This document shows positions 66 through 7,834 of a DNA stretch of 12,377 nucleotides, in pieces. Both the position numbers and the translations under genes were made by a program. The first letter of the stretch is position 1, and every line of letters starts with the position of its first letter. This stretch comes from a virus (Duplodnaviria > Heunggongvirae > Uroviricota > Caudoviricetes): the IMG/VR virus record IMGVR_UViG_2778261066_000005, one strand, 5' to 3'. Under the pieces are notes generated by a model that was not told the origin of the DNA, did no database searches, and was given only the letters and a program-made list of their open reading frames with translations.

Positions 66-716
66 ATGAATGAAAATCAGTTAGCTCCTTGTTGGGAATT
101 TCAACCTTATCTTGCTGAAAACTATGTTCGCCACTTGTTGGCGGAGATCGCTAACGTACTTGAGCAGCTGTACTATCATAAGCACGCATTAGACAGCAAC
201 TGGTCTGAAGGTGTAAGGGCTTATGATTGGGTCAGAAATCATCTTATTCAAAATGAAGATGCAATTCCTGGCCTTGAGATGATTTCCAAGGGGTTGGACT
301 ATGTAGTTGCTTTAAATAAAGTTCCGCTACAATTTACCAAAGATTGCATTAATAACCCCAAAAAGAAACATCGTCTGCGTCGAAATAAAGTAGAGTATGA
401 GCAGCTCTCATTGTTTGGTGATGTTGAGGCTGAGCAAGATATTACATGGCGAGTCATAGCTGAGCCTTTTTTATCCGAAGAGGGCGATGGTGAATTAGAG
501 TCCACACTGCCTCGTTGGGAGGTAGCTCTTGTTGGATTTAATACTTATGGTGCTCAGATTAGTATAGTTTCTCATCAATCTACAGCATCGATGCCGCTTA
601 TGCCTCTTGATTATAACACACTCCCTGACGAAGCGGAGATTAATAAGGTGCCTCTTCGTCGGCGTACGAAGGATAAAGATTTGGATGTGAGCAGTGATGG
701 AACATCAGGTGAATAA
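66..716 (+). CDS. Hypothetical protein, 216 aa, no family recognised; first gene of a two-gene module
   Basis: ATG-initiated 651-nt ORF; its 3' end overlaps the next gene by 20 nt (stop TAA 714-716 versus ATG 697), implying translational coupling. No strong Shine-Dalgarno and no motif recognised. Confidence 0.55.
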   Translation: MNENQLAPCWEFQPYLAENYVRHLLAEIANVLEQLYYHKHALDSNWSEGVRAYDWVRNHLIQNEDAIPGLEMISKGLDYVVALNKVPLQFTKDCINNPKKKHRLRRNKVEYEQLSLFGDVEAEQDITWRVIAEPFLSEEGDGELESTLPRWEVALVGFNTYGAQISIVSHQSTASMPLMPLDYNTLPDEAEINKVPLRRRTKDKDLDVSSDGTSGE

Positions 717-1800
717 CTTCACTGAGTATCGGGGTGATAAGCTCAAACTAGCGAGAATGGCTGTTGGGCTTTCTTGTGAAGAGTTAGCCGAAAAAATTGG
801 CAAGACAAAGCAATTCGTTAGCAAACTGGAGAAGGGGTGCAGGCCATCGGAGCAATGTCTTGAGTTAATATCTTCAGCGCTTATGATTAAGTCCAGTTTT
901 CTTTTTACTGAACGAAAATACGCTCTGGAAAGTGATGTCTGCCATTTTCGGAGTAAGAAGTCCAGGACTCAAACGCTGACTAATAGTGTATTGGCCAGGG
1001 CTGAGATTCTTAATATTATAATTTCTGCTGTTGAAGGTGAAATCGAATTTCCTGACGTTAACATACCGGAGCACCCAGGGGCTGAATTACTTACTCCGAA
1101 TGATATTGAGCGAGTGGCAGAAGATTGTCGCCGTGCCTGGAATTTAGGTCTTGGCCCTATATCATCAATGGTTAAATTGGCGGAGAGTTTAGGGGTAATC
1201 GTTGCGCATGTTACGGGAGTCGATGATCGTGTTGATGCTTTTACTGTTCACAATAACAGGCCTGTTATCATCAGGAACAATGTTAAAAAAAGCATATGTA
1301 GATTTCGCTCTGATTTAGGTCATGAATTAGGGCATTTAGTAATGCATGAGGGCATAACGACAGGTGATAAACTTACGGAATCACAAGCCGATCACTTTTC
1401 GAGCGCCTTATTAGTTCCCAGGTTATCTTTCATTAAAGAATTTCCACGAATACGAGGTAAGCAATTCGACTGGAATGCTCTGGTTGAATTTAAACTTAGA
1501 TGGAAAATCAGCCTTAAAATGTGTATTTATCGAGCCAGCGCATTAGGCTTATTGACCCAGGAACAGGCAAGAACTGGCTATATGCATCTTAATTCCAGAG
1601 GGTATACGAGAGTTGAACCTGGTGATGAACTTTTGCGCCCTGAAGAACCCGGCATGCTGGCCGAGGCGATTGAAATGCTGGATGATGCAACCTGGCTAAG
1701 AATTCTTATGAAAACTGGCTTGAGCCAAGATTTAATTCGTGAGTTGTTCTCCATCAACAGACCTATTACAAATCCAAGAAATATTTTCCAGATTGTTTGA
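697..1800 (+). CDS. Fused XRE-family HTH / ImmA-IrrE (M78, COG2856-type) zinc metallopeptidase, about 367 aa
   Basis: N-terminus (KLKLARMAVGLSCEELAEKIGKTKQFVSKLEKG) has the XRE helix-turn-helix pattern. HExxH zinc-binding motif HELGH is encoded at nt 1321-1335, in the context RSDLGHELGHLVMHEG typical of ImmA/IrrE peptidases. GTG at 694 is an alternative in-frame start. Confidence 0.85.
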   Translation: MEHQVNNFTEYRGDKLKLARMAVGLSCEELAEKIGKTKQFVSKLEKGCRPSEQCLELISSALMIKSSFLFTERKYALESDVCHFRSKKSRTQTLTNSVLARAEILNIIISAVEGEIEFPDVNIPEHPGAELLTPNDIERVAEDCRRAWNLGLGPISSMVKLAESLGVIVAHVTGVDDRVDAFTVHNNRPVIIRNNVKKSICRFRSDLGHELGHLVMHEGITTGDKLTESQADHFSSALLVPRLSFIKEFPRIRGKQFDWNALVEFKLRWKISLKMCIYRASALGLLTQEQARTGYMHLNSRGYTRVEPGDELLRPEEPGMLAEAIEMLDDATWLRILMKTGLSQDLIRELFSINRPITNPRNIFQIV

Positions 1801-3523: not shown

Positions 3524-3898
3524 ATGCTCATAGATTTGGTTTTACCTTACCCGCCGACGGTGAACACTTACTGGCGTCGTCGTGGCAGCACATATTTTGT
3601 ATCAAAAGCCGGGGAGCGTTATCGCCGGGCAGTGGCGCTTATTGTTCGCCAGCAGCGGCTGAAATTAAGCCTGTCCGGAAGGTTGGCAATAAAAATTATT
3701 GCAGAACCACCGGATAAGCGCCGCCGTGACCTGGACAATATTCTGAAAGCGCCGCTGGATGCGCTGACGCATGTGGGGTTGCTAATGGACGATGAGCAGT
3801 TTGATGAAATCAATATCGTTCGTGCTCAGCCAGTATCTGGTGGACGTCTGGGGGTGAAGATTTACCCCATAATGCTTGAAGGGCAGGTCAAAAAATGA
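3524..3898 (+). CDS. rusA: Holliday-junction resolvase RusA (crossover junction endodeoxyribonuclease)
   Basis: 124-aa protein with the RusA signature ...TYWRRRG...PDKRRRDLDNILKAPLDAL...; Shine-Dalgarno AAGAGGTGA at 3512-3520; its stop overlaps the next start as ATGA at 3895-3898. Confidence 0.9.
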   Translation: MLIDLVLPYPPTVNTYWRRRGSTYFVSKAGERYRRAVALIVRQQRLKLSLSGRLAIKIIAEPPDKRRRDLDNILKAPLDALTHVGLLMDDEQFDEINIVRAQPVSGGRLGVKIYPIMLEGQVKK

Positions 3899-4716
3899 AA
3901 CTGGAAGATTTACCGAAATACCACTCCCCAAAATCCCCCGGCCTGACTGATGCATCGGCCTCAACGTCGAAAGATGCGCTGAGTATCACTGATGTGATGG
4001 CCGCGCAGGGCATGACACAGAATCGGGCTGAGATGGGGTTTTCTGCGTTCCTTGGGAAAATGGGCATTAGTATGAATGACAGAGAGCGGGCAACAGAATT
4101 GCTGACAGAATATGCACTCAGTCGGTGTGATCGCGTGGCGGCGTTAAGAAAACTCCCGGCAGAAATAAAACCGGCAGTGATGCGTATTATGGCTTCGTAT
4201 GCGTTTGAAGATTATGCCCGCAGCGCGGCGAGCAAAAAACAGTGCTCCTGCTGTCACGGAAAAAAATTTATTGAAAGCGAGGTTTTTACAAACAAGATCC
4301 AGTATCCGGATGGTAAGCCGCCGGTATGGGCAAAGTGTACGAAAGGTGTGTATCCGTCTTACTGGGAAGAATGGAAAAAAGTCAGGGAGGTGGTAAAAGT
4401 TGCCTGTCCGGAGTGTGGCGGAAAGGGTGAGGTTTCCACCGCCTGTAAGGATTGCCGTGGGCGTGGTGTCGCCATTCATCGTGAAGAGTCGGTAAAACGT
4501 GGTATGCCTGTTATCAGAGACTGCCAGCGTTGTGGTGGTCGTGGCTGTGAAAGACTACCATCAACGGAGGCATTTAATGCCATATGCAAAGTGACGAGTG
4601 CTATCACGCTTGATACGTGGAAAAAATCAGTGAAACGCTTTTACGATACGTTGGTGGTTCGGTTTGACATTGAAGAGGCATGGGCGGAGCGGCAGTTAAA
4701 GAGGGTAACGCGATAG
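3895..4716 (+). CDS. Q-like late-gene antiterminator (QuuQ-type), 273 aa, with four CxxC motifs
   Basis: Sits immediately after rusA and immediately before a pR'-like promoter and tR'-like terminator, which is the canonical place for Q. Four CxxC pairs (CSCCHG, CPECGG, CKDCRG, CQRCGG) indicate zinc-ribbon repeats. The family call rests on context and recalled similarity. Confidence 0.65.
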   Translation: MKLEDLPKYHSPKSPGLTDASASTSKDALSITDVMAAQGMTQNRAEMGFSAFLGKMGISMNDRERATELLTEYALSRCDRVAALRKLPAEIKPAVMRIMASYAFEDYARSAASKKQCSCCHGKKFIESEVFTNKIQYPDGKPPVWAKCTKGVYPSYWEEWKKVREVVKVACPECGGKGEVSTACKDCRGRGVAIHREESVKRGMPVIRDCQRCGGRGCERLPSTEAFNAICKVTSAITLDTWKKSVKRFYDTLVVRFDIEEAWAERQLKRVTR

Positions 4717-4721
4717 TGTTG

Positions 4722-4749
4722 TTGATTTTTCCCGAATCTGTGGTAAATT
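4722..4749 (+). promoter_or_regulatory. Late promoter pR'-like (sigma70)
   Basis: -35 TTGATT (4722-4727), 16-nt spacer, TG at 4741-4742 and -10 TAAATT (4744-4749); TAAATT is the same -10 hexamer as lambda pR'. It starts 6 nt after the Q stop. Confidence 0.6.
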
Positions 4750-4795
4750 TGCTCTAACGATGGGCGTTTTATGCCTGACGTTAGAAGATTTTTTA

Positions 4796-4821
4796 CACCC
4801 CGCCGCCTGGCGGGTTTTTTA
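4796..4821 (+). terminator. tR'-like intrinsic terminator
   Basis: Stem CCCGCC (4799-4804), loop GCCT, stem GGCGGG (4809-4814), then TTTTTT (4815-4820), about 65 nt downstream of the candidate promoter. Confidence 0.7.
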
Positions 4822-4942
4822 TGACTGAAATCGCGTCAGTATAGTAAACGCGCTGGTGGCGGTGAATACCTGTCTTTCAGCTTGCTGGCTTTTTCGACAA
4901 GAGTTATTGGTGTGTCACGTTAACCGGAAAAGGGAAAAAGAC

Positions 4943-5140
4943 ATGCTAAAACAGCAGGATATGACAGAAACCGCCAGAGTGGTGTTTAATGAATTAAGCG
5001 TTACCGAACCGGCGACAGTCGGGGAGATAGCGCAGAATACTTACCTTTCACGCGAACGCTGCCAGTTAATACTGACCCAGCTGGTTATGGCGGATCTGGC
5101 AGACTATCAGTTCGGTTGTTACAGACGCCTTCCGCAGTGA
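4943..5140 (+). CDS. Small putative HTH / winged-helix DNA-binding protein, 65 aa
   Basis: ATG 4943 (the ORF track's longer version starts at GTG 4856). The segment VGEIAQNTYLSRERCQLILTQL looks like a helix-turn-helix. The stop is embedded in a terminator hairpin. Confidence 0.45.
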   Translation: MLKQQDMTETARVVFNELSVTEPATVGEIAQNTYLSRERCQLILTQLVMADLADYQFGCYRRLPQ

Positions 5141-5150
5141 AGGCTTTTTT
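5127..5150 (+). terminator. Intrinsic terminator overlapping the stop of the small HTH ORF
   Basis: Stem GCCTTC (5127-5132), loop CGCAGT, stem GAAGGC (5139-5144), then TTTTTT (5145-5150). Confidence 0.6.
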
Positions 5151-5167
5151 ATTTGTGGTAAATGGGC

Positions 5168-5198
5168 GGCTGGTGGGTGTTAGGGGCACCCACCAGCC
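5168..5198 (+). other. 12-bp perfect inverted repeat carrying a Chi octamer on each arm
   Basis: GGCTGGTGGGTG (5168-5179), 7-nt loop, CACCCACCAGCC (5187-5198). GCTGGTGG is at 5169-5176 and its complement at 5190-5197. No U-tract follows. Confidence 0.6.
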
Positions 5199-5290
5199 AT
5201 CTGCTCATGCGTTGGGTTCACAAGCAAACCTCAGGCCCACTGCTTTGCGCAAAAGCAGAATGAGCCTATCAGAGACAGGCTTAATGATCC

Positions 5291-6340
5291 ATGCTTAATA
5301 CTGTAAAAATATCCAGTTGTGAGTTAATCAACGCCGACTGCCTGGAATTTATCCGGTCGTTACCCGAAAATTCTGTTGACCTGATAGTCACGGACCCGCC
5401 GTACTTTAAAGTGAAGCCTGAGGGCTGGGATAACCAGTGGAAGGGCGACGATGATTACCTGAAGTGGCTGGACCAGTGTCTGGCGCAGTTCTGGCGGGTG
5501 CTGAAACCTGCCGGAAGTCTTTACCTGTTCTGTGGTCATCGCCTGGCATCTGATATCGAAATCATGATGCGTGAACGCTTCAGTGTGCTGAACCATATTA
5601 TCTGGGCGAAGCCGTCCGGACGCTGGAACGGATGCAACAAGGAAAGCCTGCGGGCGTATTTCCCCGCCACAGAGCGCATTCTGTTCGCGGAACATTATCA
5701 GGGGCCGTATCGTCCGAAAGATGCCGGGTATGCGGCGAAGGGCAGTGCACTGAAACAGCATGTGATGGCCCCGCTGATTTCTTACTTTCGTGATGCGCGC
5801 GCGGCCCTGGGGATAACGGCAAAACAGATTGCAGATGCCACAGGAAAGAAAAACATGGTGTCGCACTGGTTCAGTGCCAGTCAGTGGCAGCTACCGAACG
5901 AAAGCGATTATCTGAAATTACAGTCGCTGTTTGCCCGGGTGGCAGAAGAGAAACATCAGCGCGGTGAACTGGAAAAGCCCCACCACCAGCTGGTGGATAC
6001 GTATACGTCACTGAACCGGCAGTATGTGGAGCTGCAGAGTGAATATAAGCATCTGCGGCGGTATTTTGGTGTGACGGCGCAGGTGCCGTACACGGATGTG
6101 TGGACACATAAACCGGTGCAGTTCTATCCCGGGAAACATCCGTGCGAAAAACCGGCAGAAATGCTGCAGCAGATAATCAGCGCAAGCAGTCGTCCGGGTG
6201 ACCTGGTTGCAGATTTTTTTATGGGCTCAGGTTCAACGGTAAAAGCGGCACTGGCGCTCGGGCGTCGTGCGATTGGCGTTGAGCTGGAGACCGGACGTTT
6301 TGAGCAGACAGTCAGGGAAGTTCAGGATTTAATCGTTTGA
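5291..6340 (+). CDS. Orphan beta-class amino-DNA methyltransferase (N6-adenine or N4-cytosine), 349 aa
   Basis: Motif IV DPPY at nt 5393-5404 (SVDLIVTDPPYF) near the N-terminus and motif I FxGxG (DLVADFFMGSGST) near the C-terminus, the beta-class order. No adjacent restriction endonuclease gene. Confidence 0.85.
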   Translation: MLNTVKISSCELINADCLEFIRSLPENSVDLIVTDPPYFKVKPEGWDNQWKGDDDYLKWLDQCLAQFWRVLKPAGSLYLFCGHRLASDIEIMMRERFSVLNHIIWAKPSGRWNGCNKESLRAYFPATERILFAEHYQGPYRPKDAGYAAKGSALKQHVMAPLISYFRDARAALGITAKQIADATGKKNMVSHWFSASQWQLPNESDYLKLQSLFARVAEEKHQRGELEKPHHQLVDTYTSLNRQYVELQSEYKHLRRYFGVTAQVPYTDVWTHKPVQFYPGKHPCEKPAEMLQQIISASSRPGDLVADFFMGSGSTVKAALALGRRAIGVELETGRFEQTVREVQDLIV

Positions 6341-6389
6341 AACGGATGAGATTGCAGAATTAATTACGCACCATTATTATTCTGCTCCC

Positions 6390-6465
6390 GGCCCTTTAGC
6401 TCAGTGGTGAGAGCGAGCGACTCATAATCGCCAGGTCGCTGGTTCAAATCCAGCAAGGGCCACCA
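6390..6465 (+). tRNA. ileZ: tRNA-Ile2 (anticodon CAU; ileX/ileZ-like), 76 nt with encoded CCA
   Basis: Hand-folded cloverleaf: acceptor GGCCCTT/AAGGGCC, D-arm GCTC-AGTGGTGA-GAGC, anticodon CAT at 6423-6425, T-loop TTCAAAT, discriminator A plus CCA. Closely resembles E. coli tRNA-Ile2 from memory; an elongator tRNA-Met cannot be excluded by eye. Confidence 0.8.
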
Positions 6466-6474
6466 TATCACATA

Positions 6475-6551
6475 CCACCATTAGCTCATCGGGATAGAGC
6501 GCCAGCCTTCGAAGCTGGTTGCGCGGGGTTCGAGTTCTCGATGGCGGTCCA
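6475..6551 (+). tRNA. tRNA-Arg (anticodon UCG), 77 nt, with non-canonical pairs
   Basis: Acceptor CCACCAT/ATGGCGG (one A-C mismatch), D-arm GCTC...GAGC, anticodon loop CTTCGAA (TCG at 6509-6511), T-loop TTCGAGT, CCA at 6549-6551. The T-stem contains two G-U pairs, so it may be partly degenerate. Confidence 0.6.
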
Positions 6552-6565
6552 TTTATCGGTATTCT

Positions 6566-6609
6566 GCGTTGTTAGCTCAGCCGGACAGAGCAATTGCCTT
6601 CTAAGCAGC
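6566..6609 (+). pseudogene. Truncated tRNA-Arg (UCU): 5' half only
   Basis: GCGTTGT-TA-GCTC-AGCCGGACA-GAGC-A-ATTGC-CTTCTAA-GCAGC gives acceptor 5' strand, D-arm and anticodon arm (TCT at 6600-6602). No T-arm and no ACAACGC acceptor 3' strand follow; a GT-rich tract follows instead. Confidence 0.5.
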
Positions 6610-6807
6610 TGTGGTTGCACTCCTGTTGTTTCTGGTGGTGATGGTGGACTTCAGCAGCCGGATAATGTCGGTGCTGTCTGATGGTGTTTTGGTGGCGGGT
6701 GTGTGGTTGTTGCTTTCCCGTTGCTGAAAAAGAAAGCATCAGGCGATTAGCAGGGTATCAGTTACACGTTGAAATTTTTAAATACCTCACAATTCCACAG
6801 CTTGATG

Positions 6808-7005
6808 ATTGTCTGGCTGCCGGAGAATTTGTTAAAAATTACATCGCATGGTGAATCCCCCTCAGCGGCGGGGCATCTGGCAAAGTGTATGATCCAGAGA
6901 ACATGCAAATTCAGTAGACAGGCTGAATTTACCGGGAGGCCCCTGGCACCATGCGACAGACAGAAATTAGGCTATACTTCAGCCCCTCTCCGGAGGGGCT
7001 TTTCT
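6808..7005 (+). repeat. Structured non-coding element, copy 1 (about 198 bp), terminator-capped
   Basis: Paralogous to 7277-7470. Shared blocks: ATTGTCTGGC, TTTGTTAAAAA, TCGCATGGTGAATCCCCCT, GAATT(T/C)ACCGGGAGGC(C/A)CC(T/C)GGCACCATGC, and terminal palindrome AGCCCCTC-TCCG-GAGGGGCT plus T-run. Confidence 0.7.
6981..7005 (+). terminator. Intrinsic terminator ending element copy 1
   Basis: 8-bp GC-rich stem AGCCCCTC/GAGGGGCT with TCCG loop, followed by TTTTCT. Confidence 0.65.
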
Positions 7006-7194
7006 GTGCAGGATGTGTCACAGTTTCCTGAATTCTGAGTACTGTCCTGTTACTCAGGGTGCTATATTTTCTGACGTGATGAAAGTCTGCCGGAAGGCGG
7101 AACGTATCGGAAATGACCCAGTAGAGAAAACGTTGACTCAGATACCGATGCTGAGTTACCGGGAAACCGGCATCACATGACCGCTATCCTTCCA

Positions 7195-7276: not shown

Positions 7277-7470
7277 ATTGTCTGGCCGGCGGGAAGTTTG
7301 TTAAAAAATTTCGCATGGTGAATCCCCCTGTGCGGAGGGGTAATCAGCGAGTAGGTATATGGGATAATCGCGGATTCAGGTGCTGGTACTGAATTCACCG
7401 GGAGGCACCCGGCACCATGCAATGGCACATAGCGCCACTCTCCAGCCCCTCTCCGGAGGGGCTGTTTATA
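7277..7470 (+). repeat. Structured non-coding element, copy 2 (about 194 bp), terminator-capped
   Basis: Paralogous to 6808-7005; the 19-nt block TCGCATGGTGAATCCCCCT is identical (7311-7329 versus 6844-6862); the same terminal palindrome sits at 7444-7463. Confidence 0.7.
7444..7470 (+). terminator. Intrinsic terminator ending element copy 2 (weak U-tract)
   Basis: AGCCCCTC-TCCG-GAGGGGCT followed by GTTTATATTG. Confidence 0.5.
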
Positions 7471-7498
7471 TTGATTTTGTCAGATGTGAGTAAACTCC

Positions 7499-7834
7499 TT
7501 ATGGACTTTGTTGTTTTAGCCCATAAGGACATATTTGCAGAGTGCAACGGTTATTAAAGCATTCATTCAATACGTTATCTGTATTTGTAGGGCATTCCTG
7601 GCTGTTTTTGATTAAATTCCAGAATGTTTTATTGAATGGTACTACGTTGTAAATGGTTACAGGTAGCACTTTGTTATTGAGCATGATGCCTGTGTGAGTC
7701 AGTGTAAATATACTTTCAGGAGGTAAGAAAGCATCCGATTGATACCAGATTATTAATTTTATTTTACTCCATATGACTGAAAAAGATATTCCGCATGATG
7801 GCTGGATAACTGTATCAATCACAATCCACTTCAT
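7499..7834 (-). CDS. Hypothetical protein, 111 aa, in an AT-rich island; the only candidate gene on the minus strand
   Basis: ORF with AAGGAAA about 6 nt upstream of its ATG on the minus strand. Base composition is much more AT-rich than the flanking phage genes. No motif recognised; it could be spurious. Confidence 0.3.

What the first reader, a model, noticed from the sequence alone, without database searches (positions are those of the whole stretch)
4943..6340. Small HTH-like protein, Chi-bearing hairpin and orphan beta-class methyltransferase placed under late (Q-dependent) control
Seen in sequence: downstream of the pR'/tR' pair come a 65-aa ORF with an HTH-like segment, its own terminator, a 12-bp perfect hairpin, then a 349-aa methyltransferase with DPPY followed by FxGxG and no partner endonuclease. 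Inference: the methyltransferase is expressed late to modify progeny phage DNA (anti-restriction or epigenetic marking). The small protein could be a controller; its helix pattern loosely recalls PapI/FaeA-type regulators, which act with adenine methylation, but that is a weak impression from memory.
Basis: partly seen in the sequence, partly recalled or inferred. Interest (0 to 1): 0.5.

Follow-up and report, generated by a model that had tools for sequence, protein, structure and literature searches.

The report
Phage methylase with structured RNA leader
This prophage stretch carries a close relative of M.EcoGII, the already characterised enzyme that methylates every adenine, in the phage's late operon; the "Chi hairpin" in front of it is one helix of a conserved folded RNA leader that is not in Rfam and probably helps keep this toxic enzyme switched off.

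Summary
The 349-aa methyltransferase is about 95% identical to M.EcoGII, the characterised non-specific adenine methyltransferase of E. coli prophages. It sits between a lambda-like Q/pR'/tR' unit and the lysis genes, and the same DNA occurs in 2,521 of 5,426 complete E. coli genomes. That part is already known.

The 65-aa ORF is a real gene under purifying selection. It encodes a generic stand-alone winged-helix protein, not a PapI/FaeA or C-protein relative. It forms its own cassette (conserved upstream motif, ORF, terminator) and is absent from roughly 15-20% of otherwise equivalent loci, so a dedicated controller role is not supported.

The new result concerns the 12-bp "Chi hairpin". It is helix P2 of a roughly 140-nt leader (window 5155-5290) that lies directly upstream of this methyltransferase family across Enterobacterales. 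Compensatory changes support the helices. Chi is replaced by other sequences in Providencia, Proteus and others while the helix is kept. One-sided changes give G·U pairs only on the sense strand. Two mutually exclusive conserved pairings suggest a switch.

There is no Rfam match and no literature hit. The leader's function, probably control of translation, is inferred and not shown.

The parts
3895..4716 (+). Antiterminator Q (273 aa; context, upstream of the finding)
   Evidence: Pfam PF03589 E=1e-49, phrog_127; RefSeq annotates it as 'antitermination protein' on identical DNA.
4722..4764 (+). Late promoter pR': -35-like TTGATT 4722-4727, extended -10 TGgTAAATT 4741-4749, AACGATGGG element 4756-4764
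   Evidence: The -10 and AACGATGGG align column for column with lambda pR' and with the SfV late promoter. Calling AACGAT the sigma-70-dependent pause element rests on my knowledge of lambda.
4799..4824 (+). tR' intrinsic terminator (CCCGCCGCCTGGCGGG + TTTTTTATGA)
   Evidence: Terminator scan; the equivalent site is annotated as a terminator in SfV.
4881..4918 (+). Conserved motif CTTGCTG-N10-CAAGAGTTATTGGTGTGTCAC in front of the small ORF; candidate promoter/operator or 5'-UTR element, function unknown
   Evidence: Conserved from E. coli to Proteus and Xenorhabdus while the flanks vary. It precedes 298 of 308 small-ORF copies and occurs only once without one. Not flagged as sigma-70-like.
4943..5140 (+). 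65-aa stand-alone winged-helix protein (phrog_331; named 'TrmB family' or 'DprA-like WH' by sources)
   Evidence: phrog_331 E=1e-36; 329 homologues; AF2 pLDDT 91 with H-H-H-beta-hairpin topology; pN far below pS (dN/dS 0.04 against SfV); invariant recognition helix RCQLxLTQ.
5127..5154 (+). Intrinsic terminator closing the small-ORF cassette (stem 5127-5144, T run 5145-5154)
   Evidence: Terminator scan. A hairpin overlapping the stop codon is present in relatives.
5155..5290 (+). Conserved structured RNA leader of the methyltransferase (whole element)
   Evidence: Covariance model R1 scores 121.9 bits here, E=4e-28. It is found once per locus, always ending at the methyltransferase ATG: 55 loci and 76 of 80. 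116 of 117 motif-only matches in IMG/VR precede a DPPY ORF. No Rfam family matches. No conserved ORF runs through it. Divergence is 0.25 against a synonymous 0.78.
5163..5167 (+). P1 5' strand UGGGC. It pairs either with GCCCA 5235-5239 (P1) or with GCUCA 5203-5207 (alternative P1).
   Evidence: P1 is paired in 100% of 48 sequences, with a compensatory change in L019. The alternative is paired in 98%, with a compensatory change in L238. Single-sequence MFE folds choose the alternative.
5168..5198 (+).
   Evidence: 92.7-97.2% of cells are paired, and 5-8 of the 12 pairs show double-sided changes. At least nine different arm sequences each have a matching partner.
5200..5228 (+). P3 (5' arm UCUGCUCAU 5200-5208, 3' arm ACAAGCAAA 5220-5228; the loop carries GGUUCA)
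   Evidence: 5-6 of 9 pairs show double-sided changes. Column pair 49/75 of A1 reads CG:23, AU:9, UA:7, UG:3.
5235..5239 (+). P1 3' strand GCCCA
5240..5258 (+). P4 hairpin (CUGCUUU / AAAGCAG)
   Evidence: 80.5-90.3% paired; mostly invariant, with some double changes in divergent members.
5263..5281 (+). P5 hairpin (AGCCU / AGGCU) whose 3' arm holds the only SD-like AGG; the loop carries UAUCAGAG
   Evidence: The position of the hairpin is conserved but the register shifts between clades.
5285..5293 (+). Translation start region: conserved UGAUC (5285-5289) immediately 5' of the ATG (5291)
   Evidence: GATC is present in 46 of 48 aligned leaders. Its complementarity to the loop motifs GRUCA and UAUCA is read directly from the sequence and is not statistically testable.
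5291..6340 (+). M.EcoGI/GII-family beta-class N6-adenine DNA methyltransferase, 349 aa (RefSeq WP_000935516.1)
   Evidence: PF01555 E=2e-44; 331/350 identical to the M.EcoGII sequence printed in PMC11551740 Table S1; PADLOC MTase_II E=4e-167; RefSeq annotation.
6390..6551 (+). Two phage tRNA genes directly downstream (CAT anticodon 6390-6465; Arg-TCG 6475-6551)
   Evidence: ARAGORN, Rfam. RefSeq calls the first tRNA-Ile.

Best explanation
The region is a pair of accessory cassettes ("morons") in the late operon of a Qin-like lambdoid prophage, between Q/pR'/tR' and the lysis genes.

**Cassette 1: the small protein.** It consists of a conserved upstream motif, a 65-aa stand-alone winged-helix nucleic-acid-binding protein, and its own terminator. 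What the protein binds is unknown.

**Cassette 2: the methyltransferase and its leader.** It consists of a roughly 140-nt structured RNA leader fused to a methyltransferase of the M.EcoGI/GII family, the sequence-non-specific N6-adenine methyltransferases.

**Likely mechanism.**
- In the lysogen the enzyme, which is toxic, stays off. The only promoter identified upstream on this strand is pR'. Transcripts from it stop at tR', and any read-through meets a second terminator and then the folded leader.
- After induction, Q-modified RNA polymerase reads through both terminators. The enzyme is then made with the late proteins and methylates replicating phage DNA broadly, which would blunt host restriction. 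This step is inferred from the published properties of M.EcoGII.
- The "Chi hairpin" is helix P2 of the leader.
- The leader can adopt two mutually exclusive folds: a three-way junction (P1/P2/P3), or a long hairpin (alternative P1 plus P2).
- Its 3' part (P5, and the UGAUC just before the ATG) is placed to occlude the ribosome-binding region.
- I therefore think the leader limits or times translation of the methyltransferase. This last step is inference only.
For: **Identity of the enzyme**
- It is 349 aa with DPPY then FxGxG and hits PF01555.
- It is 95% identical to M.EcoGII.
- Phage 1720a-02, named in the M.EcoGII paper as carrying a very similar enzyme, matches this DNA at 94.8%.
- Reconstructed ancestors of the clade are also active in the non-site-specific DNA assay (Table S3 of PMC11551740).
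- M.EcoGII is silent in the lysogen and deleterious when expressed.

**Late-operon placement**
- pR' aligns with lambda pR', and tR' plus a second terminator precede the gene.
- No promoter-like site lies on the + strand between 4600 and 6800.
- The order Q - (small ORF) - methyltransferase - (tRNAs, stx) - lysis recurs in SfV, phiP27, mEp460, phiNP, a Morganella phage and Stx2 phages.

**The leader is a selected RNA structure**
- On an alignment made without structural information, 88% of cells are paired, against 29-40% when the partners are slid.
- On model-fitted alignments the figures are 90% against 32-41%, with 18 of 36 pairs changed on both sides, and 85% against 33-44%, with 112 double-changed cells against 7-24.
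- At least nine different P2 arm sequences each have a matching partner.
- One-sided changes fall on the C/A-rich 3' arm and give G·U pairs, which works only for the sense-strand RNA.
- The leader diverges at 0.25, against a synonymous divergence of 0.78 in the adjacent gene.
- No frame stays open across members.
- The link to the methyltransferase is near-obligate: 116 of 117 motif-only matches precede a DPPY ORF.

**Two states.** Both partners of UGGGC are conserved, and each shows one compensatory case.

**Separate cassettes**
- The leader abuts tR' directly where the small ORF is missing.
- The upstream motif travels with the small ORF: 298 of 308 copies, and only once alone.
Against: - No expression, methylation or structure-probing data exist for this locus. 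Late-only expression and anti-restriction are inferred from gene order and from work on M.EcoGII.
- The M.EcoGII sequence I compared with was machine-read from a PDF and carries some reading errors, so "95%" is approximate.
- The leader alignment is phylogenetically shallow: Enterobacterales only, with an effective sequence number of 1.44.
- P1 and P4 are nearly invariant, so they are supported by few events.
- Two of the three pair counts were made on model-fitted alignments, which lean towards the structure.
- Single-sequence folding prefers the long-hairpin form over the three-way junction.
- The Xenorhabdus and Photorhabdus relatives have only a shorter hairpin-type leader.
- The occlusion of the start region rests on complementarity that barely varies and could not be tested.
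- No trigger for a switch is known.
Confidence: 0.6

Rival explanations
1. The hairpin matters as DNA. It would be a double, bidirectional Chi site that protects or recombines phage DNA through RecBCD, and the surrounding conservation would be secondary.
For: Chi is present on both strands of the hairpin, and a second palindromic double Chi lies at 5983-5996. The window holds 9 Chi sites in 12.4 kb, against about 1 per 4.6 kb in E. coli. Chi-rich lambdoid phages are documented (PMC12315714). Mosaic junctions in two relatives fall at or just after the hairpin.
Against: The complementary-strand Chi is absent from most relatives: the 3' arm reads CACCTGCCAGCC, CACCCGGCCAGCC and other variants. 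In Providencia, Proteus and several IMG/VR clades the 5' arm no longer contains Chi, yet the helix is kept by compensatory changes. The constancy of the G/U-rich 5' arm in enterics is what RNA wobble rules predict. The hairpin is embedded in further covarying helices.
Confidence: 0.07
2. The leader is mainly a transcriptional insulator or attenuator. The long GC-rich hairpin (alternative P1 plus P2) would act as a further terminator or pause site that stops stray transcription from reaching the toxic gene, and Q-modified polymerase would ignore it.
For: The leader always begins a few bases after another terminator. MFE folds give a hairpin of about 17 bp. The Xenorhabdus and Photorhabdus versions reduce to one strong hairpin followed by a weakly U-rich stretch. 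The enzyme's toxicity makes layered insulation plausible.
Against: No proper U tract follows the hairpin in the E. coli-type leader, and the terminator scan did not call it. This reading does not explain the conservation and covariation of P3, P4 and P5, or of the region abutting the ATG.
Confidence: 0.15
3. The leader is an RNA processing or stability element. It could be an RNase III or RNase E site, or a protective 5' structure, that cuts the methyltransferase message out of the long late transcript and sets its half-life. Translation would not be gated.
For: It is a long, stable, conserved set of helices inside a polycistronic late transcript that also carries tRNAs needing processing. Lambda uses RNase III sites in leaders, which I state from my own knowledge.
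Against: There is no direct evidence. The two conserved alternative pairings, and the conserved sequence touching the start codon, fit a switch acting on initiation better.
Confidence: 0.12
4. The 65-aa winged-helix protein is the dedicated controller of the methyltransferase, by analogy with C proteins of restriction-modification systems or with PapI/FaeA. It would bind the leader or nearby DNA.
For: It lies directly upstream in 62 of 78 genome loci and in 93 of 109 IMG/VR loci. Its recognition helix is invariant across genera. Winged helices can bind RNA hairpins, and SelB is among the structural matches.
Confidence: 0.1

Closest known systems
M.EcoGII and M.EcoGI (E. coli O104:H4 C227-11; Murray et al. 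2018, PMC5778455)
   Same: Same length (349 aa), about 95% identity, beta-class motif order, no partner endonuclease, and prophage location. This family is described as very large and resident in a well-defined E. coli prophage.
   Different: This allele has not been assayed. The published work does not describe the gene's native regulation, the leader, or the neighbouring small gene.
Lambda late control (Q, pR', the short pR'-tR' transcript) and the accessory-gene slot downstream of it, where stx sits in Stx phages
   Same: The -10 and AACGATGGG elements of pR' align with lambda. A terminator lies about 45 nt after the AACGATGGG element (my estimate from the coordinates). Cargo genes sit between tR' and the lysis genes, and the methyltransferase, tRNAs and stx occupy this slot in phiP27 and Stx2 phages.
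   Different: Q here is of the PF03589 type (273 aa with a zinc-finger-like CxxC region), not lambda Q. There is no stx in this prophage. Lambda orf-64, in the same position, is unrelated to the small ORF.
Structured 5' leaders that gate translation by sequestering the ribosome-binding site (riboswitch expression platforms, ribosomal-protein leaders, RNA thermometers)
   Same: A multi-helix conserved leader lies immediately 5' of the start codon, with mutually exclusive conserved pairings and a hairpin covering the only SD-like bases.
   Different: It matches no described family. No ligand, protein partner or temperature dependence is known, and the regulatory output is not demonstrated.
Chi hotspots in Chi-rich lambdoid phages (PMC12315714; Bobay et al. 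2013, as cited there)
   Same: Chi is over-represented in the window. Phage LLS from that study carries this same leader upstream of its methyltransferase region.
PapI/FaeA and R-M controller (C) proteins
   Same: Small size, and a helix-turn-helix type of DNA-binding fold next to a methyltransferase.
   Different: It gives no sequence match to FaeA (PF04703) or to Xre-type HTH. There is no fimbrial operon and no endonuclease. The protein is separable from the methyltransferase.

Membership tests
M.EcoGI/GII family of non-specific N6-adenine DNA methyltransferases | Beta-class architecture: catalytic DPPY N-terminal, central target-recognition region, FxGxG SAM-binding motif C-terminal; Pfam N6_N4_Mtase | tested here: met
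   DPPY at residues 35-38, FMGSG near 311, PF01555 E=2.3e-44 over residues 29-340.
M.EcoGI/GII family of non-specific N6-adenine DNA methyltransferases | Close full-length sequence identity to M.EcoGII (for comparison, M.EcoGI and M.EcoGII share 333 of 349 residues) | tested here: met
   331/350 identical, end to end, to the sequence in PMC11551740 Table S1. That text is machine-read and has a few reading errors.
M.EcoGI/GII family of non-specific N6-adenine DNA methyltransferases | Orphan enzyme encoded on a lambdoid prophage | tested here: met
   It is flanked by Q, a small winged-helix gene and tRNAs, with no endonuclease. Relatives occur in SfV, phiP27, mEp460 and Stx2 phages.
M.EcoGI/GII family of non-specific N6-adenine DNA methyltransferases | Methylates adenine in any sequence context; silent in the lysogen | not testable with these tools
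   Needs LC-MS or SMRT/nanopore data for this allele. Shown for M.EcoGII only.
Lambda-type Q-dependent late transcription unit | pR' with a TAAATT -10 and a promoter-proximal AACGAT element, followed by terminator tR', directly downstream of a Q gene | tested here: met
   Alignment with lambda and SfV; terminator scan; Q matches PF03589. Q-dependent read-through itself was not tested.
PapI/FaeA regulators | Sequence membership in Pfam FaeA (PF04703) | tested here: not met
   No FaeA hit even at E<=1. The only weak hits are TrmB (E=0.02, below the cut-off) and DUF7342.
PapI/FaeA regulators | Association with a fimbrial (pap/fae-type) operon and its Lrp/Dam GATC switch | tested here: not met
   The context is a prophage late region in every locus examined.
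PapI/FaeA regulators | Small winged-helix fold | tested here: met
R-M controller (C) proteins | Xre-type HTH protein with a C-box, controlling an adjacent endonuclease or methyltransferase pair | tested here: not met
   No HTH_3/Xre match for the small protein, no endonuclease, and the protein is separable from the methyltransferase.
Any described RNA family (Rfam 15) | Covariance-model match to the leader at or near the gathering score | tested here: not met
   No gathering-level hit in 4650-5350. The best sub-threshold hit is P26 on the opposite strand (24 bits against a gathering score of 36). Nothing falls on the leader in eight divergent loci.
Chi recombination hotspot | 5'-GCTGGTGG-3' octamer | tested here: met
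   Positions 5169-5176, with the complement at 5190-5197. The octamer is not conserved in relatives that keep the helix. Hotspot activity is not testable here.

The most novel reading that the evidence does not exclude
The ~140-nt leader could be a new class of RNA switch that senses a signal of the late lytic cell. The signal might be a metabolite such as SAM or SAH, a phage or host protein, or the ribosome itself. The leader would flip between its two conserved folds to license translation of a promiscuous, self-toxic adenine methyltransferase only when phage DNA is there to be modified. The conserved winged-helix neighbour might be a trans-acting partner in most, but not all, phages.
Probability: 0.2. 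Interest if true: 0.7.

Novelty: new member of a known kind. Interest (0 to 1): 0.45.

Why it matters
- **A widely used enzyme with unstudied native control.** M.EcoGII is a standard reagent for chromatin and RNA footprinting. I found no paper on its native regulation or on its biological role in phage.
- **It is common.** The cassette is in nearly half of complete E. coli genomes, including Stx phages.
- **The leader gives an experimental handle.** A conserved leader with two alternative folds offers a concrete way to ask how a cell-toxic, sequence-blind methyltransferase is kept silent in lysogens and released at induction.
- **It is a candidate new RNA family.** The leader could be submitted to Rfam.
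- **The Chi site needs no DNA-level explanation.** The eye-catching Chi site in the hairpin is explained by RNA pairing rules, without invoking recombination.
- **The rest is ordinary.** The methyltransferase itself and its late-operon position are already known.

Tried and rejected
1. **Leader peptide.** The leader opens with ATG GGC GGC TGG TGG GTG TTG TAG (MGGWWVL), which recalls tandem-Trp attenuation. I rejected this: loop indels break the frame, stops fall at variable places, and the Trp codons disappear where the helix covaries.
2. **Second pR'-like promoter at the leader start.** Window TGTGGTAAAT at 5150-5160 resembles 4739-4749. The resemblance is not shared by relatives, whose pR' differs, and there is no -35.
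3. **Translational coupling of the methyltransferase to an upstream ORF.** ATGA-type overlaps exist in some members, but the frames are not conserved.
4. **Homology of the small ORF to lambda orf-64,** which lies in the same position. None was found.
6. **The motif at 4881-4918 as an RNA hairpin, or as a sigma-70, sigma-54 or sigma-32 promoter.** By eye I saw no covarying stem and no acceptable -10 or -24/-12 element. It is left unexplained.
7. **Rfam P26.** The sub-threshold hit at 5167-5231 on the minus strand is treated as chance.
8. **Testing the loop-to-start-region pairings** (GRUCA or UAUCA with UGAUC). There is too little variation.
9. **Technical failures.** One structure string had the wrong length. 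One search pattern had too wide a gap.
10. **Supplementary Table S1 of the M.EcoGII paper** is not held. The enzyme sequence was therefore taken from another paper's supplement.
Full report
**1. What is in the window**

The window is the late-regulatory and lysis region of a lambdoid, Qin-like prophage of E. coli.
- Bases 4700-6400 are 100% identical to many human and animal isolates. Some version is present in 2,521 of 5,426 complete E. coli genomes and in 41 phage records, mostly Stx2 phages.
- The gene order on the + strand is:
  - a DUF968 protein, RusA and Q (PF03589);
  - the small ORF and the methyltransferase;
  - two tRNAs;
  - a nanS-p-like esterase;
  - holin, lysozyme and Rz.

**2.

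- The 65-aa ORF runs 4943-5140.
- Its terminator is a stem at 5127-5144 followed by a T run.
- The hairpin at 5168-5198 has perfect 12-bp arms. It carries Chi on one strand and Chi's complement on the other.
- The 349-aa methyltransferase ORF runs 5291-6340, with DPPY ahead of FxGxG.
- All are exactly as described. The hairpin is the strongest inverted repeat in the window.
- The upstream pR'/tR' pair is also real. The -10 TAAATT and the AACGATGGG element align with lambda pR' and with the SfV late promoter. A GC-rich hairpin plus T run follows at 4799-4824.
- No promoter-like site lies on the + strand between 4600 and 6800.

**3. The methyltransferase is a known enzyme family**

- Its sequence is 331/350 identical, end to end, to M.EcoGII as printed in a supplement of PMC11551740. 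That text is machine-read and has a few evident reading errors.
- M.EcoGII has these published properties (PMC5778455):
  - It is the non-specific adenine methyltransferase of E. coli O104:H4.
  - It is 349 aa, beta class, and 333/349 identical to its paralogue M.EcoGI.
  - It belongs to a very large family in a well-defined prophage.
  - It is not expressed in the lysogen and is harmful when expressed. Its authors propose that it switches on when the prophage is induced.
- That paper names phage 1720a-02 as carrying a very similar enzyme. The phage matches this DNA at 94.8%.
- Reconstructed ancestors of the clade are also active in the non-site-specific DNA assay (Table S3), so the property is probably family-wide.
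The expected result of a methylome experiment is broad m6A, not a motif.
- I found no paper on the native regulation or phage biology of the family.

**4. The small ORF is a real gene, but its link to the methyltransferase is loose**

- It belongs to phrog_331, of unknown function, and has 329 database relatives.
- Non-synonymous divergence is far below synonymous divergence. Against SfV, pN is 0.03 and pS is 0.46.
- AlphaFold gives a confident model (pLDDT 91) of three helices and a beta-hairpin wing.
- Pfam gives no FaeA or Xre match.
- It is present upstream of the methyltransferase in 62 of 78 evaluable genome loci and in 93 of 109 IMG/VR loci.
- Where it is missing, tR' abuts the leader directly.
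- It also occurs without the methyltransferase.
- A conserved motif lies 55-65 nt upstream of its ATG (window 4881-4918). The motif precedes 298 of 308 copies and occurs only once alone.
- I read this as a separate cassette of motif, ORF and terminator. The motif fits no promoter consensus that I could apply, so its role is open.

**5. The hairpin is helix P2 of a conserved RNA leader**

- The 150 nt between the small ORF and the methyltransferase are conserved from E. coli to Citrobacter, Klebsiella, Kosakonia, Mixta, Buttiauxella, Erwinia, Morganella, Providencia and Proteus.
- Alignment folding found a long-range pairing, UGGGC with GCCCA, that encloses the hairpin.
- I then defined five helices (window coordinates in section 6).
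- The table below gives the pair counts for this structure on three alignments.

| Alignment | Cells paired | Cells paired when partners are slid | Double-sided changes |
|---|---|---|---|
| A1, MAFFT only, no structural input | 88% | 29-40% | 12 pairs |
| A4, fitted to the model, 54 distinct sequences | 90% | 32-41% | 18 of 36 pairs |
| A6, fitted, Morganellaceae-centred IMG/VR set | 85% | 33-44% | 112 cells, against 7-24 when slid |

- P2 occurs with at least nine different arm sequences, each with its own complement. Six of them are GGCUGGUGGGUG, GACUGUAAAAGUG, GACAGUGAGGAUG, GGCAGAAGAGUG, GACCGAUGAGUG and GGCGAUCAGGGUG.
- One-sided changes fall on the C/A-rich 3' arm and create G·U pairs. 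On the opposite strand these would be C·A mismatches, so the selected molecule is the sense-strand RNA.
- The same rule explains why the G/U-rich, Chi-containing arm looks frozen in enterics.
- The leader diverges at 0.25 on average, against a synonymous divergence of 0.78 and a non-synonymous divergence of 0.19 in the adjacent gene.
- No reading frame is kept across members.
- The covariance model finds one copy per locus, always ending at the methyltransferase ATG.
- A scan of IMG/VR with a pattern taken from the RNA alone gave 116 of 117 evaluable matches directly in front of a DPPY ORF.
- Rfam 15 has no matching family. Distinctive strings from the leader occur in no held paper.

**6. How the leader may work (inferred)**

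The helices lie at these window coordinates.

| Helix | 5' strand | 3' strand |
|---|---|---|
| P1 | 5163-5167 | 5235-5239 |
| Alternative P1 | 5163-5167 | 5203-5207 |
| P2 | 5168-5179 | 5187-5198 |
| P3 | 5200-5208 | 5220-5228 |
| P4 | 5240-5246 | 5252-5258 |
| P5 | 5263-5267 | 5277-5281 |

- The 5' strand UGGGC has two conserved partners.
  - GCCCA gives a P1/P2/P3 three-way junction. It is paired in 100% of sequences and has a compensatory change in L019.
  - GCUCA (GCCCG in some clades), inside the P3 5' arm, gives one long hairpin and dissolves P3. It is paired in 98% and has a compensatory change in L238.
- Thermodynamic folding of single sequences picks the long hairpin.
- The methyltransferase ATG has no canonical Shine-Dalgarno sequence.
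- The only SD-like bases lie in the 3' arm of P5.
- The conserved UGAUC just before the ATG is complementary to conserved loop sequences in P3 and P5, but it varies too little to test.
- My working model is a structured leader that limits or times translation of a toxic enzyme, on top of two upstream terminators that Q-modified polymerase overrides.
- Rival readings are an attenuator or insulator hairpin, a processing or stability element, or a binding site for the winged-helix protein. These are listed with their weights under the rival explanations.

**7. Chi**

- The window has nine Chi octamers, about three times the E. coli average. Chi-rich lambdoid phages are documented (PMC12315714).
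- The second double Chi, at 5983-5996, lies in codons for PHHQLV.
- Homology with two relatives ends at or just after P2. This is compatible with Chi-stimulated exchange but proves nothing.
- The evidence does not support Chi as the reason the hairpin exists.

**8. Verdict**

- The methyltransferase and its late placement are already known biology.
- The controller/PapI idea is not supported.
- The hairpin leads to a conserved structured RNA leader that I could not find described anywhere. It has signs of two alternative states, and its function still has to be shown experimentally.

Noticed in passing
window 6816-7009 and 7285-7473 (+): Two copies of the prophage sRNA family STnc100 (RF02076; 138 and 132 bits) lie between the tRNAs and the esterase gene. 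A 2026 preprint relates STnc100 to PasD sRNAs and finds these sRNAs associated with PF03589-type Q genes and with esterase genes.
   Followed up: partly
window 6390-6620 (+): A phage tRNA cluster like that of Stx phages: a CAT-anticodon tRNA (ARAGORN calls it Met, RefSeq Ile), tRNA-Arg(TCG), and then a decayed third tRNA. The third is identical to the tRNA-Arg(TCT) of an Stx2k phage through the anticodon arm but has lost its T arm. No stx genes follow.
   Followed up: partly
window 4881-4918 (+): The motif TTGNNN-N10-13-[CA]AGAGTTAYNTGTRTGTCAY is conserved from E. coli to Xenorhabdus. It sits at a fixed distance upstream of 298 of 308 small winged-helix ORFs and occurs only once without one. 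It is neither a recognisable sigma-70 promoter nor a covarying hairpin, and its function is unknown.
   Followed up: partly
window 5983-5996: A second palindromic double Chi (CCACCAGCTGGTGG) lies inside the methyltransferase gene, in codons PHHQLV. In all, 5 + 4 Chi octamers occur in 12.4 kb, including one at 4852 that is conserved in SfV.
   Followed up: partly
L005 (phage PhiR5_1) and L006 (phage phiSTEC1575-Stx2k), relative to window 5180-5214: Homology of these relatives to the window stops inside or just after the P2 hairpin, and different cargo follows: an esterase gene directly, or a 237-aa HTH protein. The hairpin and Chi region therefore marks mosaic junctions.
   Followed up: no
window 4756-4824 (+): pR' plus tR' should produce a short terminated transcript of about 60-65 nt in the lysogen, the counterpart of lambda 6S RNA and of the StxS sRNA of Stx phages. 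I recall StxS from memory. This was not examined.
   Followed up: no
window 4866-4838 (-): The only promoter-like site in 4600-6800 lies on the minus strand (TTCACC-17-TATACT). It points back through tR' and the 3' end of Q. About two such matches are expected by chance, so this is probably nothing.
   Followed up: no
window 66-1800 (+): A 368-aa ORF combines an Xre-type HTH with a Peptidase_M78 (ImmA/IrrE-like) domain. Its start is overlapped by a 216-aa ORF with no Pfam match. The pair looks like an anti-repressor or defence-type module upstream of the Q region.
   Followed up: no
window 7499-7834 (-): RefSeq annotates a 111-aa ORF on DNA of strain DA33133, the chromosome that matches window 4700-6400 at 100%, as the anti-adapter protein IraM. 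It has no Pfam hit. It is the only minus-strand gene in the late region.
   Followed up: no
L056-L090 (Xenorhabdus and Photorhabdus prophages), about 100 nt upstream of the methyltransferase: These relatives keep the winged-helix ORF and the methyltransferase, but the 140-nt leader is replaced by a shorter element built around a single strong hairpin. In Photorhabdus that hairpin still reads GGCUGGUG/CACCAGCC.
   Followed up: partly
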